Part shown: piece after piece, positions 1-61,055 of the stretch
Numbering within the stretch: position 1 is the first letter of the stretch
Layout of the letters: each line of letters opens with the position of its first letter
Source: Octopus vulgaris
Lineage: Eukaryota
Direction: 5' to 3'
DNA length: 64,000 nucleotides
Assembly (NCBI GenBank): GCA_951406725.2
Contig: OX597820.1
Span: 123,566,001 to 123,630,000 of the forward strand
Notes under the pieces: model-generated
What the model saw: the letters and a program-made list of their open reading frames with translations, nothing else
What the model was told of the DNA's origin: nothing
The model's database searches: none
Made by a program: the position numbers and the translations under genes

Positions 1-1752
1 TCACCGTCATAGTGTCTAGCCACGAGCACATCGAGCAGGTCGGCGAGACATTGAAAAACTACGAAGCGGTGACAGGAGCAAAATCAACCGGGAAAAGTCA
101 GTGGGCTTGCGACTCGGCACCTGGAGAAGCAAGCCCATGCCGTCCACCAGCGCCTCCGTCGTGGGACGCTGGACCGACTGCCCGGTTGAGTTGCTCGGGG
201 TCTGGTTTGGTCCGGACCTCCAAGTGGAGAAGAACTGGAACGAGATAACGAGTAGGGTGGTCACTCTCGCCCGGCAATGGGCCGAGAGGAAACTGTCCCT
301 AAAAGGTCGGGCGGAGGTGGCGAACACGTACATCGCGTCCGTCATCTACTACCGCCTGACCGTCGTACCTTGTCCCGACCCTACCATCACCAAACTACAA
401 CGCATTCTCTTTCGCTTCTTGTGGAAAGGATGCGTCCCGATGGTCAGGCGATCCATTTGCTGTCAACACCCGTTAAAAGGAGGGCTGGGCATGCCGTGGT
501 TGATGATGCGCAGACACGCGCTGAGACTGCGACATCTCTGGCTCTATGTAGACGACGGTGAACATGTGTGGTCGCCGTTTGTGAGGCACGCTTTCCCGCA
601 GCTCGTCTCCATGACCGAACTGCAGTCGTGGATCAAAAAGAGGCCGAAGAAGGGCGAGTGGCACCGCGAGTGTCGCGTTGCTCTCAAGCAACTCTGCCGT
701 CCTGGGTCGACCTTGAGTGACTTCAACACAACCAAAGTATTCTATAGGGGTTTAGTGGAGGGGAGGTACGACGACGAGCTCGGGGCGAACCTGGACGTCG
801 ACGAGGAGTACCTCACCCGCCTGTTCAGGACGACTTTCGGGCCAGGGCCCATGAACAACTTCCAGAGATCCCTGGCCTGGCAGTGCTACCGAGAAGCGCT
901 ACCCGTTCGGGATAAGCTCTACAGACACGGCTCCAGAAACACGGGGCCGACCTGCCCGAGATGCGGTCAGAGCGACGAAACCGTTCTGCACGCACTCGTG
1001 CAGTGTCCAACAATTTCCGACCTGTGGGCTTGTGTCGAACAACTGCTGTCACGTGTGGGACGAGTCGGTTTATCAGCTGAGTCTATCATTAATATTGTCA
1101 CGCCTCCCTCCTTCAAACGGGAAGGAAGAGCTATTTTCATCATCCTTGTGGCTATGGCGAAAGAATGTATCTGGTGGACGCGTCTGAAAGGATTGGAGAC
1201 AAACACTTTCCTCTCTGGTCAATCTCTCATCAACTTCTTCAAGTACCACTTGAAAAGGAAAGTGAGAGTAGAGAGGCAAGTTTTGTCTAGCGAATGTTTT
1301 AAAAAAGATGGGTGAATGTAGCAAGAAGGGCACGTATGAATGACGAAGCCACCTTGAGCATGATCCTATGAACCCAGAAATTGAAAACAGAGAGTTGCTT
1401 ATTTGCAAAAAAAAAAAAAAAAAGAAATATAACATGTGACTCCATTGACCGAGGTTACCGTGGTCTTTTCCGTAGGCTTTTCTTTCCACGGGTAAACCTC
1501 ACCTGTCCTCCCCTTTACACTTCATATTGACATTTCTGTGATAACGATCCCTATTGATCAAATTTTTTTTTTCCTCTCCCCTTTTTTTTAACCCCCTTTT
1601 TTGTCCTCTTTCTCTCCTTTTACGATCCCTTTTGATTGAAACTCCCCCTTCCTATTTTCTTTTTTTTTTTTTTTTTTAAACCTTCAAAAGAAAAGCTCTA
1701 CCTTGTAATTTGTTCTATCTGTGTGCAGCCCTGTGTGGCTAATAAAGAAACA
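1..1752 (+). mobile_element. Tx1/L1-clade non-LTR retrotransposon, 3' portion (RT C-terminus, zf-RVT region, 3' UTR), cut by the window start
   Basis: ORF2-like protein ...LSLKGRAEVANTYIASVIYY...GGLGMP...CPRCGQSDETVLHALVQC, then a T/C-rich 3' UTR ending AATAAAGAAACA directly into (TATC)n. A near-identical 3' copy lies at 34874-35374. Confidence 0.9.
3..1370 (+). pseudogene. Tx1-like ORF2 (RT thumb/C-terminal region plus CCHC zinc finger) with two 1-nt frameshifts
   Basis: Frame TVIVSSHEHIEQVGETLKNYEAVTGAK (3-~85) joins INREKSVGLRLG into ORF 101-1315. A second shift in the A-run at ~1301-1306 (6 A here, 7 A in the 34.9 kb copy) continues as RWVNVARRARMNDEATLSMIL*. Confidence 0.8.
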
Positions 1753-2970: not shown

Positions 2971-4961
2971 GAAAACCACTCAGCAGCATTTTGTAATAAG
3001 TCTGCTGCCTTCACGCAATCCTCATACTATGATCACATGACATAACACGCTAAAACACGATGAAAGGGGAGATGAAAGTAGATGTAAAAGGTGGAAGTGT
3101 GAAAGCACCGGAAAACGAAAAGAAAAGGAAAAAAAGAACGAAAACTTAAGGAGAATTAGAGTTATGTCCGCATGGAGTGTAAAATCATAATAAAACTGAA
3201 TTGAGAGAGGCCTAAATTCCGCCGTACAGCTGACCAATCCAGAGGGGGTAGTATTTTCCAAATCGCAAACAGGATCTTATTCATTTGTTTAATTCCGCTG
3301 GAAATTAATCAGTGGAGTAGAGTTCTAGGACCTGAACAGGATCTGTGATCGTTCATCTACGCCTAGCTTAAATTTTTCTGATCCGCTGGCATATACTGTG
3401 GACTTCTTAGCTAATTTCCACTTAGTTGTATGTAATGTGGCGTTAGACTTTAAACTCCATTCGTAGCTAGCCAACTTAATGGCTTTCCTTTTGCCAGAAG
3501 AAAATCATGTGGTTAGCATAACTATATTTGAAGTCGCCTTCCCATAACCCGATGCAACACTTCTTTTCAGTTATGTTATCATTTAGTGTTGCTTTAACTC
3601 CTGCGTCATAATTGACGCATCGCTGGTTGAGTGGAGAGGTTTCTGGATTTCGATAGTTACAACTGGGAGTAGGATCTTGGTGGGAGTAGGATCTTGGCGT
3701 GTAATGAAGTTCTTGATATTGGCACAGCAGCTATATGATAATTTGATTGAGAGCCTGTTAAATATTTTTCAGTACCTATGATTTACGGGAAAATGTTTAT
3801 CTAAGAGAGACAGGAATCTTACTTATTTTGGTTTTAACGTTAAGGGAAATAGGGAGGACGAACCAAATTATTCTCCTTGGAGTAAATTATGTTATTCTTA
3901 GAAGAGTTGTAAATGAATTCAACTTTAAAGCTAATATTAGCTAAGGCATTATCGTACTAGGGGCTGCCTTCTCAAAAATTTCTTTAGAGGAAGAGAGGTT
4001 AGATATTATGTTGCTTATGTTGTGTTTAATATTTTAAACACTATGGGTGAGGGCTGGGGGGACAAGACTGTATATAGGAAAGTTTCCCGCTGGGCATATG
4101 GTAAGGTTTATAAGAGGAAGCATTTAGATCTCGAGAAATATCTAAAGAATCGACTTTTGGCAGATTAGTAGCGACTGTGATTTTAAGGTCTAATTGAGTT
4201 ATTTCTTATATTTATCTAGGATGTGATCATCACAGCTATAGGAAGTGCCCAACCCATCGTCTTGGAATAGACTATCGTCGTGGGATGGACACTTGGATCT
4301 GAATGTGTTTAGTACAAGATCACAGATGTCAGCACTGAAGTATGATTCCATCGATACGTCATACAATTCAGCGGTATCAAACTTTTTTATCCATGCTGAG
4401 TCTTACTAAACAGGAGTGCTTTTCTCGCATGCATGAACAGGTCTAGGTCTACAGAGTCTATATCAACATATGATTTATCAAACTCGACCGCCTTATCAAG
4501 CAGCGATCTCGATACAGAAAAATAAAATCTATATCAAAGTGAGCTACGTATCGAGTTTGAAGTCTAACGTTACACCTTTTCAGACCTAACAACTCCAACG
4601 CACTGCTGAATTCCAGATCTGAAATTTTCAGTGAATGTAAACATTGGATAAGTTCCTATTGTCGAATTGGATAATAACACCTTCTCTGGATTGAGCAGCT
4701 CTACCGCAGAGTTTAGGCCCCTCTCCATTCAGTCTTATTACGACTTTTTGTCAAAGGGAACTTAACTCTAATTCATTCCTACATTTAGTTTTCTCTCGTT
4801 TTCTGGTGTTTTCAACCTACGCATTCACATCTTCTTTCTCACCTTTCATCGTATCTTCTCTTATTTTATCGTCCTGTTTTAGCTTGTTATGCTTTGTCGG
4901 CTCAGTCTGAGGATTGCTTGAAGGCACTAAACGAATTATAGAATGCTGCCTGAGTTGTTTT
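2971..4961 (-). mobile_element. Degenerate Penelope-like element (RT core to GIY-YIG) with inverted pLTRs
   Basis: Minus-strand relics HFDIDF..SRSLLDKAVEFD, YDVSMESYFSADICDLV, HDDSL (RT motifs) and CIGLWEGDFKYSYANH (GIY-YIG). 2971-3293 and 4654-4961 are diverged inverted repeats. Confidence 0.75.
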
Positions 4962-5557: not shown

Positions 5558-6474
5558 GGGGGGGGGGCGCATTTGTTTATTGTGTATGTGACTGTGTGTG
5601 TGTATGAACGTGTGTATATGTATGTGTGTGTGGTTTGTGCATATCCAGGAACAGCTTGTTTTATTAGAAATATATAAAGCTGTCGAACCTGACGTGAACG
5701 TAGTGATAATCAGAGAATGAGAGAAAGATGTGGTAAGCGGGGAACGTTCCGTTGAATGGAAATGAAAATCTTGCTGGACATTCAGAAGAAAAATATAGTT
5801 TCCAATTGACTAAAAATTCCTATCTACATTAGCCAAATTGCAATTATCTTGAAAACTACAAATGGTCTATTTTGTAGGACTTCTTAAATAAAAACGATTT
5901 TATTAAATGATAGAGACCAACAATGATTATCATAGCGGAGCTACGTAAAATAGCTATGTTCTAGACTTTGATGCGCAATATGGTGAGAAAAGCATAGCAG
6001 ATAAGATTTAGAAAATAGTAGAATATGTGAATCAAATTTGCTCTTTGTAGACTCGATAAAAAGTTTCCCATTTTAAAATAGTCGCTGAAACTGATTACGA
6101 CTCGTTTAACTTGAAAGATTAAATTAAGAGCCAAAATAATAATTGGACTTAGAAAAAAGAGAAGCCAAAAGCGGAACAGACCACGCCATGGAGAAAGCCT
6201 TATAAAAGACATGTATATGTATGTATGTATGTATGTCTGTCTGTATGTATGTATGTATGTATGTATGTATGTATGTGTGTATGTATGCATGCATTATGTA
6301 AGTATGTATGTATTTATAAATGAGTATGTATGCATGTATATATATATAAACATAAATAAAAAATATAAATTCCACATATATATATATATATATATGCACA
6401 CACACACTCATACACACACACACACACACACACATATCCTCCACAACATACCCCCTCCTAAAAAAAGACCACAG

Positions 6475-15074: not shown

Positions 15075-15464
15075 GGATATGGAAGCACTCCGTCGGTTAC
15101 AACGACGAGGGTTCCGGTTGATCCGAATCGACGGAACAGCCTGCTCGTGAAATTAACGTGTAAGTGGCTGAGCACTCCACAGACACGTGCACCCTTAACG
15201 TAGTTCTCGGGGATATTCAGCGTGACACAGAGAGTGACAAGGCCGGCCCTTTGAAATACAGTTACAACAGAAACAGGAAGTAAGAGTGAGAGAAAGTTGT
15301 GGTGAAAGATTACAGCAGGGATCACCACCATCCCCTGCCGGAGCCTCGTGAAGCTTTAGGTGTTTTCGCTCAATAAACACTCACAACGCCCGGTCTGGGA
15401 ATCGAAACCGCGATCCTATGACCGCGAGTCCACTGCCTTAACCACTGGGCCATTGTGCCTCCAC
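15075..15464 (-). mobile_element. Full-length tRNA-derived SINE family C with 11-bp TSD
   Basis: A/B-box head TGGCCCAGTGGTTAAGGCA...GGTTTCGATTCCC. TSD GCATTTCGTAT at 15064-15074 and 15465-15475. Near-identical copy at 55.3 kb. Confidence 0.9.
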
Positions 15465-21818: not shown

Positions 21819-21974
21819 TACGACGGGCTTCATTCAGGTTCTGTCTACCAAATCCACTCACAGGGCTTTGGTTGGCCCGAGGCTATAGAAGAAGACACTT
21901 GCTACGCAGTGAGACTGAACCCAGAACCATGTAGTTGGTAAGCAAGTTGCTTACAACACAGTCCCTCCTACGCC
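21508..21974 (-). mobile_element. SINE family A, full length
   Basis: Head, CORE-like CAAGTGTCTTC, internal (CA)/(TA) repeat and conserved tail. Homologous to the 36.6 and 48.1 kb copies. Confidence 0.85.
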
Positions 21975-22697
21975 TCTAAATATAGATATTTGCTTGATAT
22001 AAAAATAGAGATACAGTATACTAAGATCTATTCCTAAACGTGTTCGACTGTAGTTGAACAATATTGTAGACAAATTATGTCTTTGATTGAGATCTATATT
22101 TCACAGTGTTCACTTCTTGAAAAAAAAAATGAAAAGTACAGTCATCCACCCTTAGGAGTGAGTAAGGCTTGGCCGCCTCTACTCTGCTTATGCTTACGGC
22201 TATGTGTACCCATGTAATCACCTGAAGAGAAATGCACACTCTCGTATCGTTTACTCTTTATCCAGCGCGACACAGAGGATGTAACACAAAGGAAAAGAGG
22301 GCTACATCGGATAGTACTCAGAACAGTTGCGCAGAATAATTTAACCACGAAACTACGAACCTCCACATCTTTGCATGCACGAAAGACGATGTTCAGGATA
22401 TGAATTAAATCTCATACAGCGTATAGAATAAGAATATATGTCTTAGAATGCATTTCATCCAAACCTCGATCAATTTGGCCAACACACCGAAACATTTAAT
22501 AAGAACTATGAATTGTTCTTTGCTCACATCCCAGTCAATGATTAGGAACAAACAGTGCAGCTTTATCAAACATTTTTTCGGAGTCTATTTCGAAAAGTAA
22601 GACTAGTGAATGTACTAAATTATATTCAGACTTTAATCAGACTAACACTATGCAAGCAAATATGCAAATATATATACACACATATATATATATATAT

Positions 22698-22734
<37 letters not shown>

Positions 22735-22763
22735 CGAGAAAGAAGCAACAAGAATGGATTAGT

Positions 22764-22854
22764 TTTTAGTACAATTGTTTCATACAAAGACAGGTTTTAT
22801 TAAGAATTGCAAATATTGCAGCAGATAAAAGTGTCCCGTACTCATCAGCTAAAA
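22764..22854 (-). ncRNA. Type I hammerhead ribozyme, canonical core, extended stem II
   Basis: Reverse complement of the 23214-23304 motif. Confidence 0.85.
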
Positions 22855-23213
22855 CACATATGAGTTCTCCAAATATCTTAGTGGGTGAGGCTACACTCAT
22901 GAAGTATTGGAGATAATTTCATTAAAAGCAGATTCAGGTTGTAAACAGACTTCCGAAGTTATTTAATGATGATGCACAGTCTTATCACAGGTTTTAAAAA
23001 AAAAGCTTATTAGCTTCACAGAGAAGGTGAATTAATCCGTAGTGTAGGTGTAAATTTCCAGAGATATGAGGAGGTGTTTCATACTCACAGACGATGAATT
23101 TATCCATGGTTAATCCACAATGAGGTGGGTATAATTTCATGCTACATGATAAGGTATTTGCCACATTACTGTTCTCTTCACAAGACTGCTATGTTATGGA
23201 GAACTCATATGTG

Positions 23214-23304
23214 TTTTAGCTGATGAGTACGGGACACTTTTATCTGCTGCAATATTTGCAACTTTTAATAAAACCTGTCTTTGTATGAAACAATTGTACT
23301 AAAA
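23214..23304 (+). ncRNA. Type I hammerhead ribozyme, canonical core, extended stem II
   Basis: TTTTAG-CTGATGA-GTACGGGACA...TGTCTTTGTAT-GAAA-CAATTG-TA-CTAAAA. Predicted cleavage after A23298 (GUA). Confidence 0.85.
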
Positions 23305-23449
23305 ACTAATCCATTCTTGTTGCTTCTTTCTCGTTTATAATCACCCCACATTACTGTATGGTTAACACCATATATTTTTCTGGTGCATCTAAGTTAAGTA
23401 CCGTATTCAAGTGAATTCATTAGAATTGACTTGAATCTTAATTACTTTT

Positions 23450-23485
<36 letters not shown>

Positions 23486-23489
<4 letters not shown>

Positions 23490-23724
23490 GTTTCAATATT
23501 TGTTGTGCAAGATTTTTTTATGTTAAGTCGTGTGTTGAAACAGATATTGTTATATTTCGGAATGGTCATATTGCCAGTTTAGGAGTGTGACGAAAGAACT
23601 CTGGCCGAAATAAGATTAAGATTAATGTACAAAATAAATAACACTGAAGCAAAATAACACCAAATATATAGTGCGTGTGTTTTTATTTGCTAAACTGGCA
23701 ATATGACCATTCCGAAATATAACA

Positions 23725-23728
<4 letters not shown>
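23486..23728. mobile_element. Foldback element between (TA)n tracts, rearranged copy of the 50.37-50.58 kb repeat
   Basis: 23545-23582 is the reverse complement of 23690-23727. The inverted part starts at GGAGTGTGACGAAAGAACTC, the 3' half of an HHR. Confidence 0.75.
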
Positions 23729-23776
<48 letters not shown>

Positions 23777-24346
23777 GAATACATTAATCTGTTCGCAAGT
23801 GTATCTTACTTTCATATTTCCTTTGTCTTCACATATACGTATCGGTACTGATGCACATGCATATATAAACACAAAGATGCATAAAGGTAAAGAGATTCAA
23901 AAACACACACACGCACACACACGCACACACACATTTGTATATATCACACGCATACACAGGCACAATGTCTCTTAAAAGTATAAATATTTGTATCCAAGCA
24001 CTTGTTTACGTATATCTATACACACACTTGTACATACCTATTTATTGGAACATAGATCGATATACACACGCACGCAAACACGCCAACACGAAAACACACA
24101 CACGTACACACATACCATATGATTAACTATTAACAGATTTATTCAAGAAACGCTTGTGGAATTCGAAAATAGCTGAGGCAATCAATTAGACAGCATTCCT
24201 ATCATCATATATTAGTTGCCTAATAATTAACTTTGATGTTTTGCCCTCTTCTTGCTCTGACCTACATCAGCGGTTGATCATTAAGAATTATTTTTCATTT
24301 AAAAGTAACATTTCTGTGTTTTATTTCTTTCCTTTTTGCAATATGT

Positions 24347-45149: not shown

Positions 45150-46523
<1,374 letters not shown>

Positions 46524-53104: not shown

Positions 53105-53578
53105 CAAGGGTGGACTGAAAACTAGATAGGCTGACCCTAGAGAGATGCTAAAGCTGAGAAATTTTTGCAAGCATTAATTTCAACTTTCTTATTAATAACT
53201 GCATTGCTTCTTTCCAGGTAAACTGCAATTTGACTGTTCAAAGAAAACTTCAAAAATACCTGGAGTGACTTCTCTTGAACAAAGACGAAATATGGCACCG
53301 TGGTGTAATCAAGTACTTGCAGAAAAGAGTTTAGTCTCAAAGGACATTTATACAGACATGGTCGTACCATTAGGGCACGATGATCAGCTTTATCAACAGA
53401 GCAAAGGCGGGCAGCTAAATTTAGGAAGGGAAGAATAAGTTCTGGAAACGGCTTATTGACTGGACGATTTAGAGCTGCCTCCACCGACGAGACATCGATA
53501 TTGTACGCCACATGGTGGATGACAGACGATTGGCTATAAATGAATCACCCAAAACATTTAGCACAAACTGGCCATATT
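53105..53578 (+). mobile_element. Mariner 5' fragment
   Basis: TA|CAAGGGTGGACTGAAAA TIR-like start, then WHRGVIKYLQK..KDIYTDMV...AAKFRKGR HTH relic. Confidence 0.75.
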
Positions 53579-53583
53579 TATCA

Positions 53584-53653
<70 letters not shown>

Positions 53654-53712
53654 GTCTTTCTCTGTCTCCGTGTCTTTCTGTCTGTCTGTCTATCTCTCTG
53701 TATATGTATATA

Positions 53713-54890
53713 TACACCATCATCATTAAAAGTAAACGGCAACCAAAATCCTTGAAAAGGATTTTAACCCAAGCTAAACTGCACTCAACATCAACCACAA
53801 AACCAGCAGTTAGAAAATGTGGAAAGCCCAACTACGGAATCTGTGTCATCTTGGTAGAAGGTTCAGAATTTATACTAGAACAAGGACATCAGTTCACCAT
53901 TAGAACAAACTTCACCTGTGCATCAGAGAACTTAATTTACGTCTTAACATACGCAGGTTGCAATAGGCAGTATATAGGCCATACAAAAAATAGCTTACGT
54001 AAAAGGATGGCGGTGCATAAATCCCAAATTAGAAACCCTGATTACCGGAAAATACCAGTCAGCGGACACATAGATAGACGTGCTTCAAGTATAATCCGAA
54101 ATTTACAACTTACCCACTTTACAAATTCAGTGACAGCGTAACCTTCACCCAACGCCAAAATAAAGAACTTTATTTCATCAAAATATTTAGACCAAGTTTG
54201 AACACCCTGAGCCAGGAATATTAAAACAAAACATTGGTCTTCCGAAAAGGAAAAATGAAATTCTACCAAAATCACTACGACTGCTCCCACTAGCACTACT
54301 ACTACAACCACCGTGGTCACTACTATTGCTACTACGATCAACAGTCCTCTACGACTGCGGCTGCTACGGCCACAGCTTAACTGCCACAACCCCAACCACC
54401 ACCACAGTTGCCAAAGCTACAACCAACAGTAACTGCTACTACCGCCATTTAAGCCACTAGACATACCGCTGCTGCTAGGACAGCCACAACTTAGCCGCCC
54501 CAACCAATAAGCTGCTGCAACCCCAACTATCACCATGGTTACTACTACTACGACCAACAATCACTACTGCTGCTACCATTCCATTGGAACACAAGGACGG
54601 TTCCTTTTGATACCAGCAAGAAACAATAATGAACTTCTGTACTACACGCAACTATAATATAGCGATTATACCAACTACCGACAAAATACCACCACATGGA
54701 TTCTATTGAGACCAGTAAGAAACAACTATGAACTTTTCTATTGCACTTTTCATAATATTTTTGATAAGGTTCGTTTTTCAAGAACCGAAACATGTAAAAT
54801 TCATAAGAAAATTAAAATTTATCTAACATAGTGGCGTTTTCAAACTTCTTTTTTACAAATATATACCCACTCGTATACGATCTACTCTTA
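53713..54890 (+). mobile_element. Penelope-like 3' fragment: GIY-YIG endonuclease, ACT/ACC-rich UTR, terminal HHR, (TA)n
   Basis: IIKSKRQPKSLKRILTQAK...CGKPNYGIC...FTCASENLIYVLTYAGCNRQYIGHTKNSLRKRMAVHKSQIRNPDYRKIPVSGHI. Confidence 0.88.
54757..54800 (+). ncRNA. Minimal type I HHR motif, U3-A8 variant
   Basis: ATTT-TTGATAA-GGTTC gtttttcaa GAACC-GAAA-CATG-TA-AAAT. Confidence 0.72.
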
Positions 54891-55252: not shown

Positions 55253-55640
55253 GGATGGAAGCAATCCGTCGGTTACGACGATGAGAGTTCTGGTTGATCC
55301 GACCAACGGAACATCCTGCTCGTGAAATTAACGTGTAAGTGGCTGAGCACTCCATAGACACGTGTACCCTTAATGTAGTTCTCGGGGATATTCAGCGTGA
55401 CACAGAGAGTGACAAGGCCGGCCCTTTGAAATACAGGTACAACAGAAACAGGAAGAAAGAATGAGAGAAAGTTGTTGTGAAAGAGTACAGCAGGGATCAC
55501 CACCATCCCCTGCCGAAGCCTCGTGGTGCTTTAGTTGTTTTCGCTCAATAAACACTCACAACGCCCGGTCTGGGAATCGAAACGGCGATCCTACGACCGC
55601 GAGTCCACTGCCCTAACCACTGGGCCATTGCGCCTCCACT
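55253..55640 (-). mobile_element. Full-length SINE family C with 12-bp TSD
   Basis: TSD GAAGGTGTTTAT at 55241-55252 and 55641-55652. Homologous to 15075-15464. Confidence 0.9.
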
Positions 55641-55845: not shown

Positions 55846-55937
55846 ATCACCTGATGAGACAAATCTACATCGCCGGATACGCCTAAATCAGTTAAGTGAG
55901 GTATCAATGCTAGATGGCTCGAAACAATTGTAGGGAT
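55846..55937 (+). ncRNA. Type I HHR motif, canonical core, extended stem II
   Basis: ATCAC-CTGATGA-(GAC..ATCTACAT..GATAC/GTATC..ATGCTAGAT..CTC)-GAAA-CAATTG-TA-GGGAT. Confidence 0.65.
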
Positions 55938-59941: not shown

Positions 59942-61055
59942 ATTTAGTATCAAGAAAAGCAAAGGCAGGATATCAGTTTAGATATCAATATGAATGATCT
60001 GAGGCTTATTATTTATAATAATAGAGATATTCCCTAATACAAACTGTAAGACAATTCAGCCGAGATTTGGCATAGATAAGAGTGGAATAAACGGGACAAG
60101 TAGTCAAAAGTGAAAGCATCCAATTACCTGATGGCCAGACATAAAAACCATTGAAAGCAGGAGGGTTATAAGTATCTGGGAGTATTAGAATCTGATAGAG
60201 TACTAACTATAAAAAGGAAAATTGAAAAGGCGAAGGTTGAAAAAGGTGAGGAAGCAAGTGAAGTCAATACAAAATGGTCCGAATCTAGTGAAGGCTGTAA
60301 ATACTTGGGCAGTATCGTTACTTAGATATTTGCCAGATTTTCTAGATAGGATAATATCTGAATTAGCACATCTAGACAGAACAAGGAAGAAATTCAATAT
60401 AAATGAAGGACTTTACCCAAGAGCAGGACTAGAAAGATTATATTTACTCAGAAAGGAAGGTGACAGAGGGCTAATATCAGTAGCAGACTGCGTGGAGTCA
60501 GCTAGAGTATATATAGCCTCTTATGTAAGCAATAGTGAAGAAAGTTTATTTAGACTTGTGAGAATCACAGTAGGACATAGAGAAACCAAAAGGCCAGATG
60601 AAGTTGAAAAGCGGCAAAAGAAAAAGAAAGATTATCTGACTGGTAGATTTCCAAAGATGTTTACAGGAAATATTACTAGTGAGACATGTTTATGACTGCA
60701 GAAAAGGAAGCTGAAAAGGTGAGACAGTGTTACTTAGTAGCAGCACAAAATTAAGCATTGGGGACTAATTGGATAAACACCAAGATAGACAAAAACCTAG
60801 TAGATTTCCAATGTAGATTATGTAAATCAATACAAGTGTTAGTGGTATAGTAAGTGAATGTAGCATGCTGGAACAGGTAGAGTACAAGAACATACATGAC
60901 AACCTATGGAGTATAGTCCACTGGTAGTTATATAGCAAGCTAGGATTTGAGCATACGGATAAATGGTATGAACACGAACCTAGTGAAATACAAGGAAGTA
61001 AGATATATACGATGTAGGATTTTAACATTCAGACTGAGAAAGTGATAAAAGCTAA
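59942..61055 (+). mobile_element. Degenerate R4/Dong-like LINE fragment
   Basis: GYKYLGVLE, NGPNLVKAVNTWAVSLLRY, GLERLYLLRKEGDRGLISVADCV, IVSECSMLEQVEYKNIHDN, KWYEHEP, DFNIQTEKVIKA. Confidence 0.8.

What the first reader, a model, noticed from the sequence alone, without database searches (positions are those of the whole stretch)
22734..23334. Twin intact hammerheads in near-perfect inverted arms
Seen: two ~138-bp arms that are almost exact reverse complements, each with a canonical core (CUGAUGA, GAAA, GUA), 6-bp stem I, a long nested stem II and palindromic stem III ACAAUUGU. Inference: a young insertion in which transcripts from either strand contain an active-looking ribozyme. A read-through transcript could also fold into a long hairpin that blocks the ribozyme and offers a dsRNA substrate for ADAR or Dicer, so folding competition could act as a switch.
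Basis: partly seen in the sequence, partly recalled or inferred. Interest (0 to 1): 0.75.

Follow-up and report, generated by a model that had tools for sequence, protein, structure and literature searches.

The report
Penelope retrotransposon fragment with paired hammerheads
This is an ordinary broken copy of a jumping gene whose end repeat carries a hammerhead (predicted self-cutting RNA) motif and sits here twice, back to back, as in most copies examined, so the mirror-image pair is likely a by-product of insertion rather than a regulatory switch.

Summary
The arms and both hammerhead cores are real. They are the 3' ends (pseudo-LTRs) of a Hydra-clade Penelope-like retrotransposon (PLE). 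The insertion spans 22735-23453 in a (TA)n tract: two 5'-truncated, ORF-less copies joined head to head. Longer relatives encode reverse transcriptase plus a C-terminal GIY-YIG-like nuclease with the Hydra motifs; one sister copy has an intact 957-aa ORF. The layout is the family norm: 22 of 26 top-hit insertions have an inverted partner, and 33 of 33 resolved pairs join one tailed and one tail-less arm. Arms of one insertion are more alike than arms of different insertions. Opposite-strand twin hammerheads in PLEs are already in print. The switch idea is not supported. Read-through from either side makes the antisense arm first, and the predicted arm duplex (-232 kcal/mol) swamps the ribozyme fold (about -9). 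The short palindromic helix III likely needs a dimer, which one transcript cannot supply. Cleavage, transcription and editing are untested. The scan noted the same insertion pattern for other families in this genome before.

The parts
22668..22734 (.). Left (TA)n/(CA)n microsatellite: insertion target
   Evidence: TRF period 2 array; element terminus abuts it
22735..23198 (-). Tail-less arm: 5'-truncated copy of the element's 3' end (pLTR), 464 nt, ending at the family's fixed end 1, 35 nt after the hammerhead cleavage site
   Evidence: Matches element positions 3909-4354 of reference copy L043; end 1 followed by TA
22764..22854 (-). Type I hammerhead motif, left copy; predicted cleavage after 22770
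   Evidence: Pattern scan; stems kept across 17 family sequences
22872..23196 (-). Spacer between the arms: upstream part of the same pLTR/3' UTR, present only in the left copy
   Evidence: 42 matches in the own genome at 95-100%, many abutting arm hits; contiguous with the arm in L031, L032, L043
23191..23198 (.). Head-to-head junction of the two truncated copies, with short imperfect microhomology (alignment overlap 8 nt; exact overlap 2 nt, read by eye)
23197..23453 (+). Tailed arm: second 5'-truncated copy, 257 nt, ending at the family's fixed end 2
   Evidence: Matches element positions 4207-4468 of L043; end 2 followed by TA
23214..23304 (+). Type I hammerhead motif, right copy: 6-bp stem I, long interrupted stem II, 1-2-bp helix III with palindrome; predicted cleavage after 23298
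23334..23453 (+). 120-nt tail present at one end only; in full-length copies it is the 5' UTR leading to the ORF start about 55 nt further on
   Evidence: Tail length 118-121 wherever measured; continues into the ORF start in sister copies L053-L071
23454..23485 (.). Right (TA)16 microsatellite: other half of the target
   Evidence: TRF

Best explanation
The locus is an ORF-less, 5'-truncated insertion of a Hydra-clade Penelope-like retrotransposon, made of two copies of the element's hammerhead-bearing end joined head to head in a TA microsatellite, likely written by the family's reverse transcriptase priming on both cut target strands. Shown: arm sequences, family membership, two fixed 3' ends 120 nt apart, one of each per insertion, (TA)n flanks, RT + GIY-YIG-like ORF in longer copies. 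Inferred: the nuclease cuts (TA)n on both strands; one strand starts cDNA at end 1 and the other at end 2 of the same RNA or same source element; both cDNAs stop early and are joined at short homologies. Inferred from established PLE biology: the hammerhead processes the element's own tandem transcripts, likely as a dimer through the palindrome or with protein help. At this locus it is likely a passenger, locked in a 137-bp duplex in any read-through RNA.
For: Arm search: 47 matches, 40 of 1876 first-look candidates scored. ORFs with LYRDD and a C-terminal nuclease in longer copies. Intact 957-aa ORF in sister copy L091, about 90% identical in DNA to the window subfamily. Pfam RVT_1 E=7e-4 on an L043 frame and GIY-YIG E=1e-3 on the L091 C-terminus. 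Motifs RIRWK, DKT, CxCx5C, CxxC, CxH, with only one Cys between the GIY- and YIG-like motifs, fit the Hydra definition. Census: 22 of 26 top-hit insertions have an inverted partner, 3 are single, 1 is unresolved; 11 more pairs among 16 later-picked insertions; all 33 pairs are tail + no tail. Within-insertion arm distance 0.0055 vs 0.0259 between insertions (12 pairs, 230 nt) and 0.0077 vs 0.0146 (22 pairs, 130 nt), permutation p<1e-4. Both window arms share a rare variant seen otherwise in single arms of 2 loci, against 50 loci with the common one. The window's tail-less arm holds about 300 nt absent from the tailed arm, and the tailed arm holds the tail, so neither is a copy of the other. 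Two internal RT start sites flanking the tail, with both strands cut and extended, were shown in vitro for another PLE (PMC11167929).
Against: Pfam hits are below gathering thresholds, and the full 957-aa protein hit neither family. Clade assignment rests on motifs and by-eye comparison with the published alignment, not on a tree. Arm similarity could also come from gene conversion after insertion or from subfamily structure. About 10 of 33 pairs have the two 5' breakpoints within 30 nt of each other (read by eye), which fits fold-back priming. Covariation support for the hammerhead is moderate: 6 of 32 pairs with double changes, reached by 39 of 500 shuffles.
Confidence: 0.88

Rival explanations
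1. Same element, but the inverted arm arises by fold-back self-priming or a template switch of one cDNA (or an antisense template), not by priming on both target strands.
For: Proposed for Adineta Penelopes because of palindromes at inverted junctions (PMC3846280 passages). About 10 of 33 pairs here have near-coincident breakpoints. High within-insertion identity fits it too.
Against: In at least 13 of 33 pairs, the window included, the tail-less arm reaches more than 10 nt further upstream than the tailed arm (read by eye), so it cannot be a copy of the finished tailed arm. Both outer ends abut (TA)n at fixed element positions.
Confidence: 0.25
2. One reading: a locus-specific RNA switch in which hairpin formation competes with hammerhead cleavage and feeds ADAR or Dicer.
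For: A 137-bp near-perfect duplex is predicted on both strands. Hammerhead cores are intact and the stems are kept in the family. Small RNAs against Penelopes are reported in a rotifer.
Against: Duplex -232 vs ribozyme fold about -9 kcal/mol, and stem I/II probability about 0 in the whole-locus fold. The antisense arm is transcribed first from either side. 19 of 33 pairs in the family have the same two intact opposite-strand motifs, so the layout needs no locus-specific function. No host coding frame is recognisable among the 25 frames of 130 aa or more in the window (by eye).
Confidence: 0.04
3. A non-autonomous retrozyme or MITE-like element with terminal inverted repeats that moves as a 600-700-nt unit.
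For: Non-coding, hammerhead-bearing, short, with inverted ends. Retrozymes are reported as relatives of PLE pLTRs (bioRxiv 10.64898/2026.07.22.740005, section 14).
Against: Spans between arm ends vary from 243 to 4383 nt, with different junctions. The sequence is collinear with the 3' end of coding copies. No tandem monomer array is present at this locus.
Confidence: 0.04
4. The inverted arms are an assembly artefact.
For: Such structures are known to trouble short-read assemblies. No public contig spanning this junction was found.
Against: The arms differ at 2 sites and have different ends (tail vs none). 33 pairs on many contigs show the same rule with different junctions.
Confidence: 0.02

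Closest known systems
Hydra clade of C-terminal EN+ Penelope-like elements (Craig et al. 2021, PMC8557442), e.g. Penelope-13_HM and Hydra-1_Obim
   Same: RWK, DKT, CxCx5C, CxxC and CxH motifs, no CCHH; (TA)n targets; hammerhead near the 3' end. Penelope-13_HM is listed with a 5'-truncated inverted copy and the same hammerhead on both strands (supplement).
   Different: A different family from Hydra-1_Obim: its hammerhead and ORF start differ. The unit is about 4.6 kb between hammerheads in L091, against 'generally <3 kb'. The ORF has Asn-rich inserts (28% N in residues 481-810). The tail is 120 nt, not 30-40. Helix II is about 60 nt in all, longer than in any Hydra-clade hammerhead listed.
[quoted passage not shown]
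   Same: Type I topology, short palindromic helix III thought to need a dimer. Dual motifs about 100-700 bp apart on opposite strands were already reported in Schistosoma.
   Different: Much longer, interrupted helix II. Activity is untested here; the published minimal motifs were inactive as monomers and weak as dimers.
Poseidon_Ac of the green anole (Frangieh et al. 2024, PMC11167929)
   Same: Two fixed element ends flanking a tail, AT-rich target, hammerhead upstream of both ends.
   Different: Another clade. There the hammerhead and the RT start sites lie inside the ORF; here they lie in a 210-nt 5' UTR.
Adineta vaga Pen2a/Pen3 Penelopes (Arkhipova et al. 2013, PMC3846280)
   Same: Two direct pLTRs plus an inverted one, tail on one end only, Asn-rich ORF inserts; L091 has this layout.
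   Different: Target-site duplications of 8-10 bp there; a microsatellite target with no discernible duplication here.
Animal non-LTR retrozymes
   Same: Non-coding, hammerhead-bearing, related to PLE pLTRs.
   Different: Retrozymes are tandem monomer arrays; this is a truncated piece of a coding element.

Membership tests
Penelope-like element (EN+) | Single ORF with RT and C-terminal GIY-YIG nuclease in full-length copies | tested here: met
   957-aa ORF in sister copy L091; LYRDD at 354, VIY..YIG at 837; Pfam RVT_1 and GIY-YIG weak, below cut-off. The window copy itself has no ORF.
Penelope-like element (EN+) | Pseudo-LTRs: the 3' end repeated directly upstream of the ORF | tested here: met
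   L091 direct repeat 1036-1408 / 5686-6058, 98.9%; pLTR and tail precede the ATG in most of L053-L071
Penelope-like element (EN+) | Inverted 5'-truncated copy and a tail at one end only | tested here: met
   33 of 33 resolved pairs; tail 120 nt rather than 30-40
Penelope-like element (EN+) | Hammerhead in the pLTR | tested here: met
Hydra clade | RWK motif and DKG changed to DKT | tested here: met
   RIRWK at 35, ADKT at 123
Hydra clade | CxCx5C linker, CxxC and CxH motifs, CCHH finger absent | tested here: met
   CKCRIKSKC at 818, CQLC at 915, CVH at 945; one Cys between the GIY- and YIG-like motifs
Hydra clade | Insertion into (TA)n | tested here: met
   TA-rich flanks at nearly all termini; exceptions L036, L049 (broken tail), one stray match in L047
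Hydra clade | RT phylogeny within the clade | not tested
   Published reference proteins were seen only as supplement text; no tree built
Hydra clade | Generally shorter than 3 kb (typical, not diagnostic) | tested here: not met
   About 4.6 kb unit in L091, due to Asn-rich inserts and a long 3' UTR
Type I hammerhead ribozyme | Core C3-A9, G12-A15.1, U16.1, H17 and helices I and II | tested here: met
   91% of cells paired, 6 of 32 pairs with double changes, covariation score reached by 1 of 500 shuffles, slid controls 36-50% paired
Type I hammerhead ribozyme | Helix III stable enough for monomer cleavage | tested here: inconclusive
   Predicted pair probability under 0.01 as monomer; palindrome duplex -6.4 kcal/mol between two molecules; palindrome kept by a double change in 2 of 17 sequences
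Type I hammerhead ribozyme | Self-cleavage | not testable with these tools
   Needs a bench assay; only assembled contigs were available
Non-LTR retrozyme | Tandem head-to-tail monomers of a non-coding unit | tested here: not met
   No tandem unit at the locus; collinear with coding copies
MITE / DNA transposon | Fixed-length unit with terminal inverted repeats | tested here: not met
   Spans 243-4383 nt with variable junctions and unequal ends

The most novel reading that the evidence does not exclude
Every insertion of this family is made by a dimeric RT-nuclease that primes both cut target strands at two obligatorily different sites on one folded RNA. The sites lie in the 210-nt domain between the hammerhead cut and the start codon. 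In that domain a 13-bp helix buries the AUG and a hairpin follows each start site, so the fold would both place the two RTs and toggle the RNA between message and template. The family, with an intact ORF, would be a ready system to test how Penelope elements make their inverted, one-tailed insertions.
Probability: 0.3. Interest if true: 0.55.

Novelty: new member of a known kind. Interest (0 to 1): 0.25.

Why it matters
As a locus it is ordinary: one of many truncated Penelope insertions, with no sign of a special function. The family has modest value. It has an intact ORF, a strict one-tail/one-no-tail rule, an unusually long tail and a strongly folded 5' UTR, which make the open question of how PLEs build inverted insertions testable. 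It also leaves many near-perfect inverted repeats in the genome, which would be dsRNA substrates wherever transcribed.

Tried and rejected
Rfam at gathering thresholds: no hit; the e-value mode was not run. Sequencing runs: no RNA holder listed on record; all 24 runs are contigs with RNA only guessed, so transcription, cleavage ends and A-to-I editing could not be read. An empty-site search by laying four runs on 21900-24300 gave no joint skipping the whole insertion, and the unique left flank was barely covered: uninformative. Pfam on the Asn-rich frames and on the full ORF gave no relevant hit. L043 as a full-length reference lacks an upstream pLTR, so sister copies were used for the 5' layout. 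In one search L039 had no pair detected and 8 pairs with under 130 shared nt were left out; in short-spacer loci the compared stretch can include junction letters, which inflates within-pair distance. In one search an identity filter hid some arms (L033, L041), recovered. Literature searches: hammerhead+Penelope+inverted, hammerhead+octopus+Penelope (27), Nematis/pLTR (28), twin priming+Penelope (56), tail/start codon/stem-loop (67), retrozyme+octopus (68). From listings only, none described this family, a counted one-tail rule or an AUG-burying helix; subscription journals and Repbase are not covered. Two 12-nt motif searches of the Craig 2021 supplement found no copy of this family. Rejected: DIRS-type inverted terminal repeats (the ORF has no recombinase-type layout; judged from the motifs).

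Full report
OBSERVATION. The two arms lie at 22729-22871 and 23197-23339, 143 nt, 98% complementary, 325 nt apart. Leaving out the TA letters they are 137 nt with two mismatches. Each holds a type I hammerhead core with a 6-bp stem I, an interrupted stem II of about 60 nt and the palindrome ACAAUUGU; predicted cleavage is after 23298 (+) and 22770 (-). A strict pattern scan of both strands of the window returned only these two sites. Rfam found nothing at gathering thresholds.

IT IS A REPEAT FAMILY. In the own genome (2.8 Gb, 227 contigs) the arm gave 47 matches, most at 97-100% identity, from 40 of 1876 first-look candidates scored. The spacer gave 42 matches from 40 of 1520. Many arm hits come as facing pairs with different spacing. 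Widening these loci showed the arm to be the 3' end of a longer element. Upstream lie a 3' UTR and an ORF with LYRDD and a C-terminal nuclease. A sister copy, L091, has an unbroken 957-aa ORF about 90% identical in DNA to window-subfamily copies, with direct repeats of the hammerhead region on both sides and a short inverted piece at the 5' end. Pfam support is weak: RVT_1 E=7e-4 and GIY-YIG E=1e-3, both below cut-off, and the whole protein hit neither. A protein search with residues 30-480 returned 22 relatives among 7997 candidates scored, 21 at 31-45% identity and unnamed.

CLADE. Craig et al. 2021 (PMC8557442; I saw passages, section 11 in full, supplement part 2 and supplement search hits) define the Hydra clade by RWK, DKT, CxCx5C, CxxC and CxH motifs, no CCHH finger, canonical hammerheads and (TA)n targets. 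The L091 protein has RIRWK, ADKT, CKCRIKSKC, CQLC and CVH, and one cysteine between the GIY- and YIG-like motifs. It differs from the listed Hydra-1_Obim and is longer than typical Hydra elements. No tree was built.

ANATOMY OF THIS COPY. The insertion runs 22735-23453. A 464-nt copy on the minus strand ends at fixed end 1, 35 nt after the cleavage site. A 257-nt copy on the plus strand runs 120 nt further to fixed end 2. Both ends abut TA repeats. The truncated 5' ends meet at 23191-23198 with short imperfect homology. In full-length sister copies the tail continues about 55 nt into the start codon, so it is the 5' UTR of the next unit; the cleavage site lies about 210 nt before the ATG.

CENSUS. 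Among the 26 distinct insertions behind the 30 loci returned by the arm search, 22 have an inverted partner, 3 are single and 1 runs off the fetched DNA. These were chosen by likeness to one arm, not for having a partner; the window is one of the 22. Among 16 further insertions, several picked because they looked paired, 11 are resolved pairs. All 33 pairs join one tailed and one tail-less arm; in 19 of them both hammerheads pass a strict pattern. Spans run from 243 to 4383 nt. Arms of one insertion are closer than arms of different insertions: 0.0055 vs 0.0259 over 230 nt (12 pairs) and 0.0077 vs 0.0146 over 130 nt (22 pairs), permutation p<1e-4 (31 loci given, 9 left out). The window's arms share a rare variant found otherwise in one arm each of two loci. 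In at least 13 pairs the tail-less arm reaches further upstream than the tailed one, while about 10 pairs have near-coincident breakpoints (read by eye).

MECHANISM. Most likely the nuclease cuts (TA)n on both strands and each 3' end primes reverse transcription at a different fixed point of the element RNA; both products stop early and are joined (inference). This follows the in vitro work on the anole element, where both strands were cut and extended and two internal start sites flank the tail (PMC11167929, parts 1-2 of 4 read). Fold-back priming, proposed for rotifer Penelopes (PMC3846280, passages), remains a rival for the near-symmetric pairs. Gene conversion could add to arm similarity.

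THE RIBOZYME. Across 17 family sequences the hammerhead structure is 91% paired. Six of 32 pairs have double changes (39 of 500 shuffles reach that), the covariation score is reached by 1 of 500 shuffles, and slid controls are 36-50% paired. The sequences are related and the structure was drawn by me, so this is moderate support. The palindrome is kept by a double change in 2 of 17 and by a wobble in 3. As a monomer helix III is 1-2 pairs with predicted probability under 0.01, while two palindromes pair at -6.4 kcal/mol. This matches the dimer-type hammerheads of animal PLEs, which were inactive as monomers and weak as dimers (PMC4209133, parts 1-2 of 4 read). That paper already reports dual motifs 100-700 bp apart on opposite strands, and the Craig supplement lists a Hydra element with the same motif on both strands. 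The anole ribozyme needed protein and was dispensable for insertion in vitro.

THE SWITCH IDEA. Each strand carries one sense ribozyme and one antisense copy, so no single transcript supplies a dimer. Because the 3' ends point outward, read-through from either side makes the antisense arm first. The predicted arm duplex is -232 kcal/mol against about -9 for the ribozyme fold, and stems I and II have probability about 0 in the whole-locus ensemble on both strands. The isolated arm folds no better than shuffles (z -0.57 and +0.34), although such folding ignores tertiary contacts. This is an off state, not a balance. Only a transcript starting between the arms would free a ribozyme, and it would release no ORF. 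Whether the locus is transcribed or edited is unknown (see Tried and rejected).

A SIDE RESULT. In full-length copies the stretch from cleavage site to start codon folds strongly (z -6.9 for L070). A 13-bp helix pairs bases just after the cleavage site with the AUG region in all 18 sequences folded (pair probability 1.0 over its 8 central pairs). In the 15 full sequences aligned it has 7 one-sided changes that keep pairing, 1 broken cell and no double change, so it is conserved but not proven by covariation. A hairpin followed by a similar U-rich motif begins about 10 nt after each fixed end (by eye), in line with earlier scan notes on Hydra elements. The window copy lacks the AUG half.

VERDICT. 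A real, correctly described feature with an ordinary cause: a new family member of a known class, inserted in the known pattern. Earlier notes of this scan describe the same two-end pattern for other families in this genome; none matched this sequence or place. Other papers seen: PMC6962438 (passages) and bioRxiv 10.64898/2026.07.22.740005 (abstract and section 14; its supplements, which list retrozyme and PLE families, could not be seen). Hammerhead numbering and the general dsRNA/ADAR expectation are from my own knowledge.

Noticed in passing
window 55851-55932 (+): A second, unrelated type I hammerhead-like motif with the same helix III palindrome; belongs to an older repeat family (39 other matches at 75-81%). 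Stem I has a mismatch.
   Followed up: partly
window 46195-46270 (+): A third hammerhead-like motif (CUGAGGA core, palindromic helix III) found by the loose scan; folds at z -2.0 but not as a hammerhead.
   Followed up: partly
L031 1467-2599: A 379-nt stretch of host flank plus the tail is duplicated inside the insertion, and the flank itself holds an inverted repeat (1318-1554); looks like a template switch to local DNA followed by re-priming.
   Followed up: no
L091 ORF, residues about 481-810: Asn-rich inserts (28% N) between RT and nuclease that keep the frame, as described for rotifer Penelopes.
   Followed up: partly
L053-L086, cleavage site to start codon: Strongly folded 5' UTR with a 13-bp helix that buries the AUG and a hairpin after each fixed end.
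   Followed up: partly
L039 6984 and L043 5594-5609: One copy ends 13-14 nt short of end 1, and another begins 6 nt before its ATG right after TA letters; both points coincide with strands of the AUG-burying helix.
   Followed up: no
window 20-1315, 53473-54141, 60213-60695: Remnant frames of other retroelements (LINE-like C-terminal region; a GIY-YIG-like nuclease with a Cys pair; another RT-associated frame), judged by eye.
   Followed up: no
window 15080-15464 and 55256-55639: Two copies of a 385-nt repeat also present in L031 at 95-97% identity.
   Followed up: no
protein P0016: An annotated ankyrin-repeat protein matches the N-terminal part of this family's ORF at 68% over 38% of the query; either a gene-model artefact or an exonised fragment.
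   Followed up: no
L039 1004-3 and L089 71-538: Nuclease frames of other, more distant Hydra-like families lie next to copies of this family.
   Followed up: no
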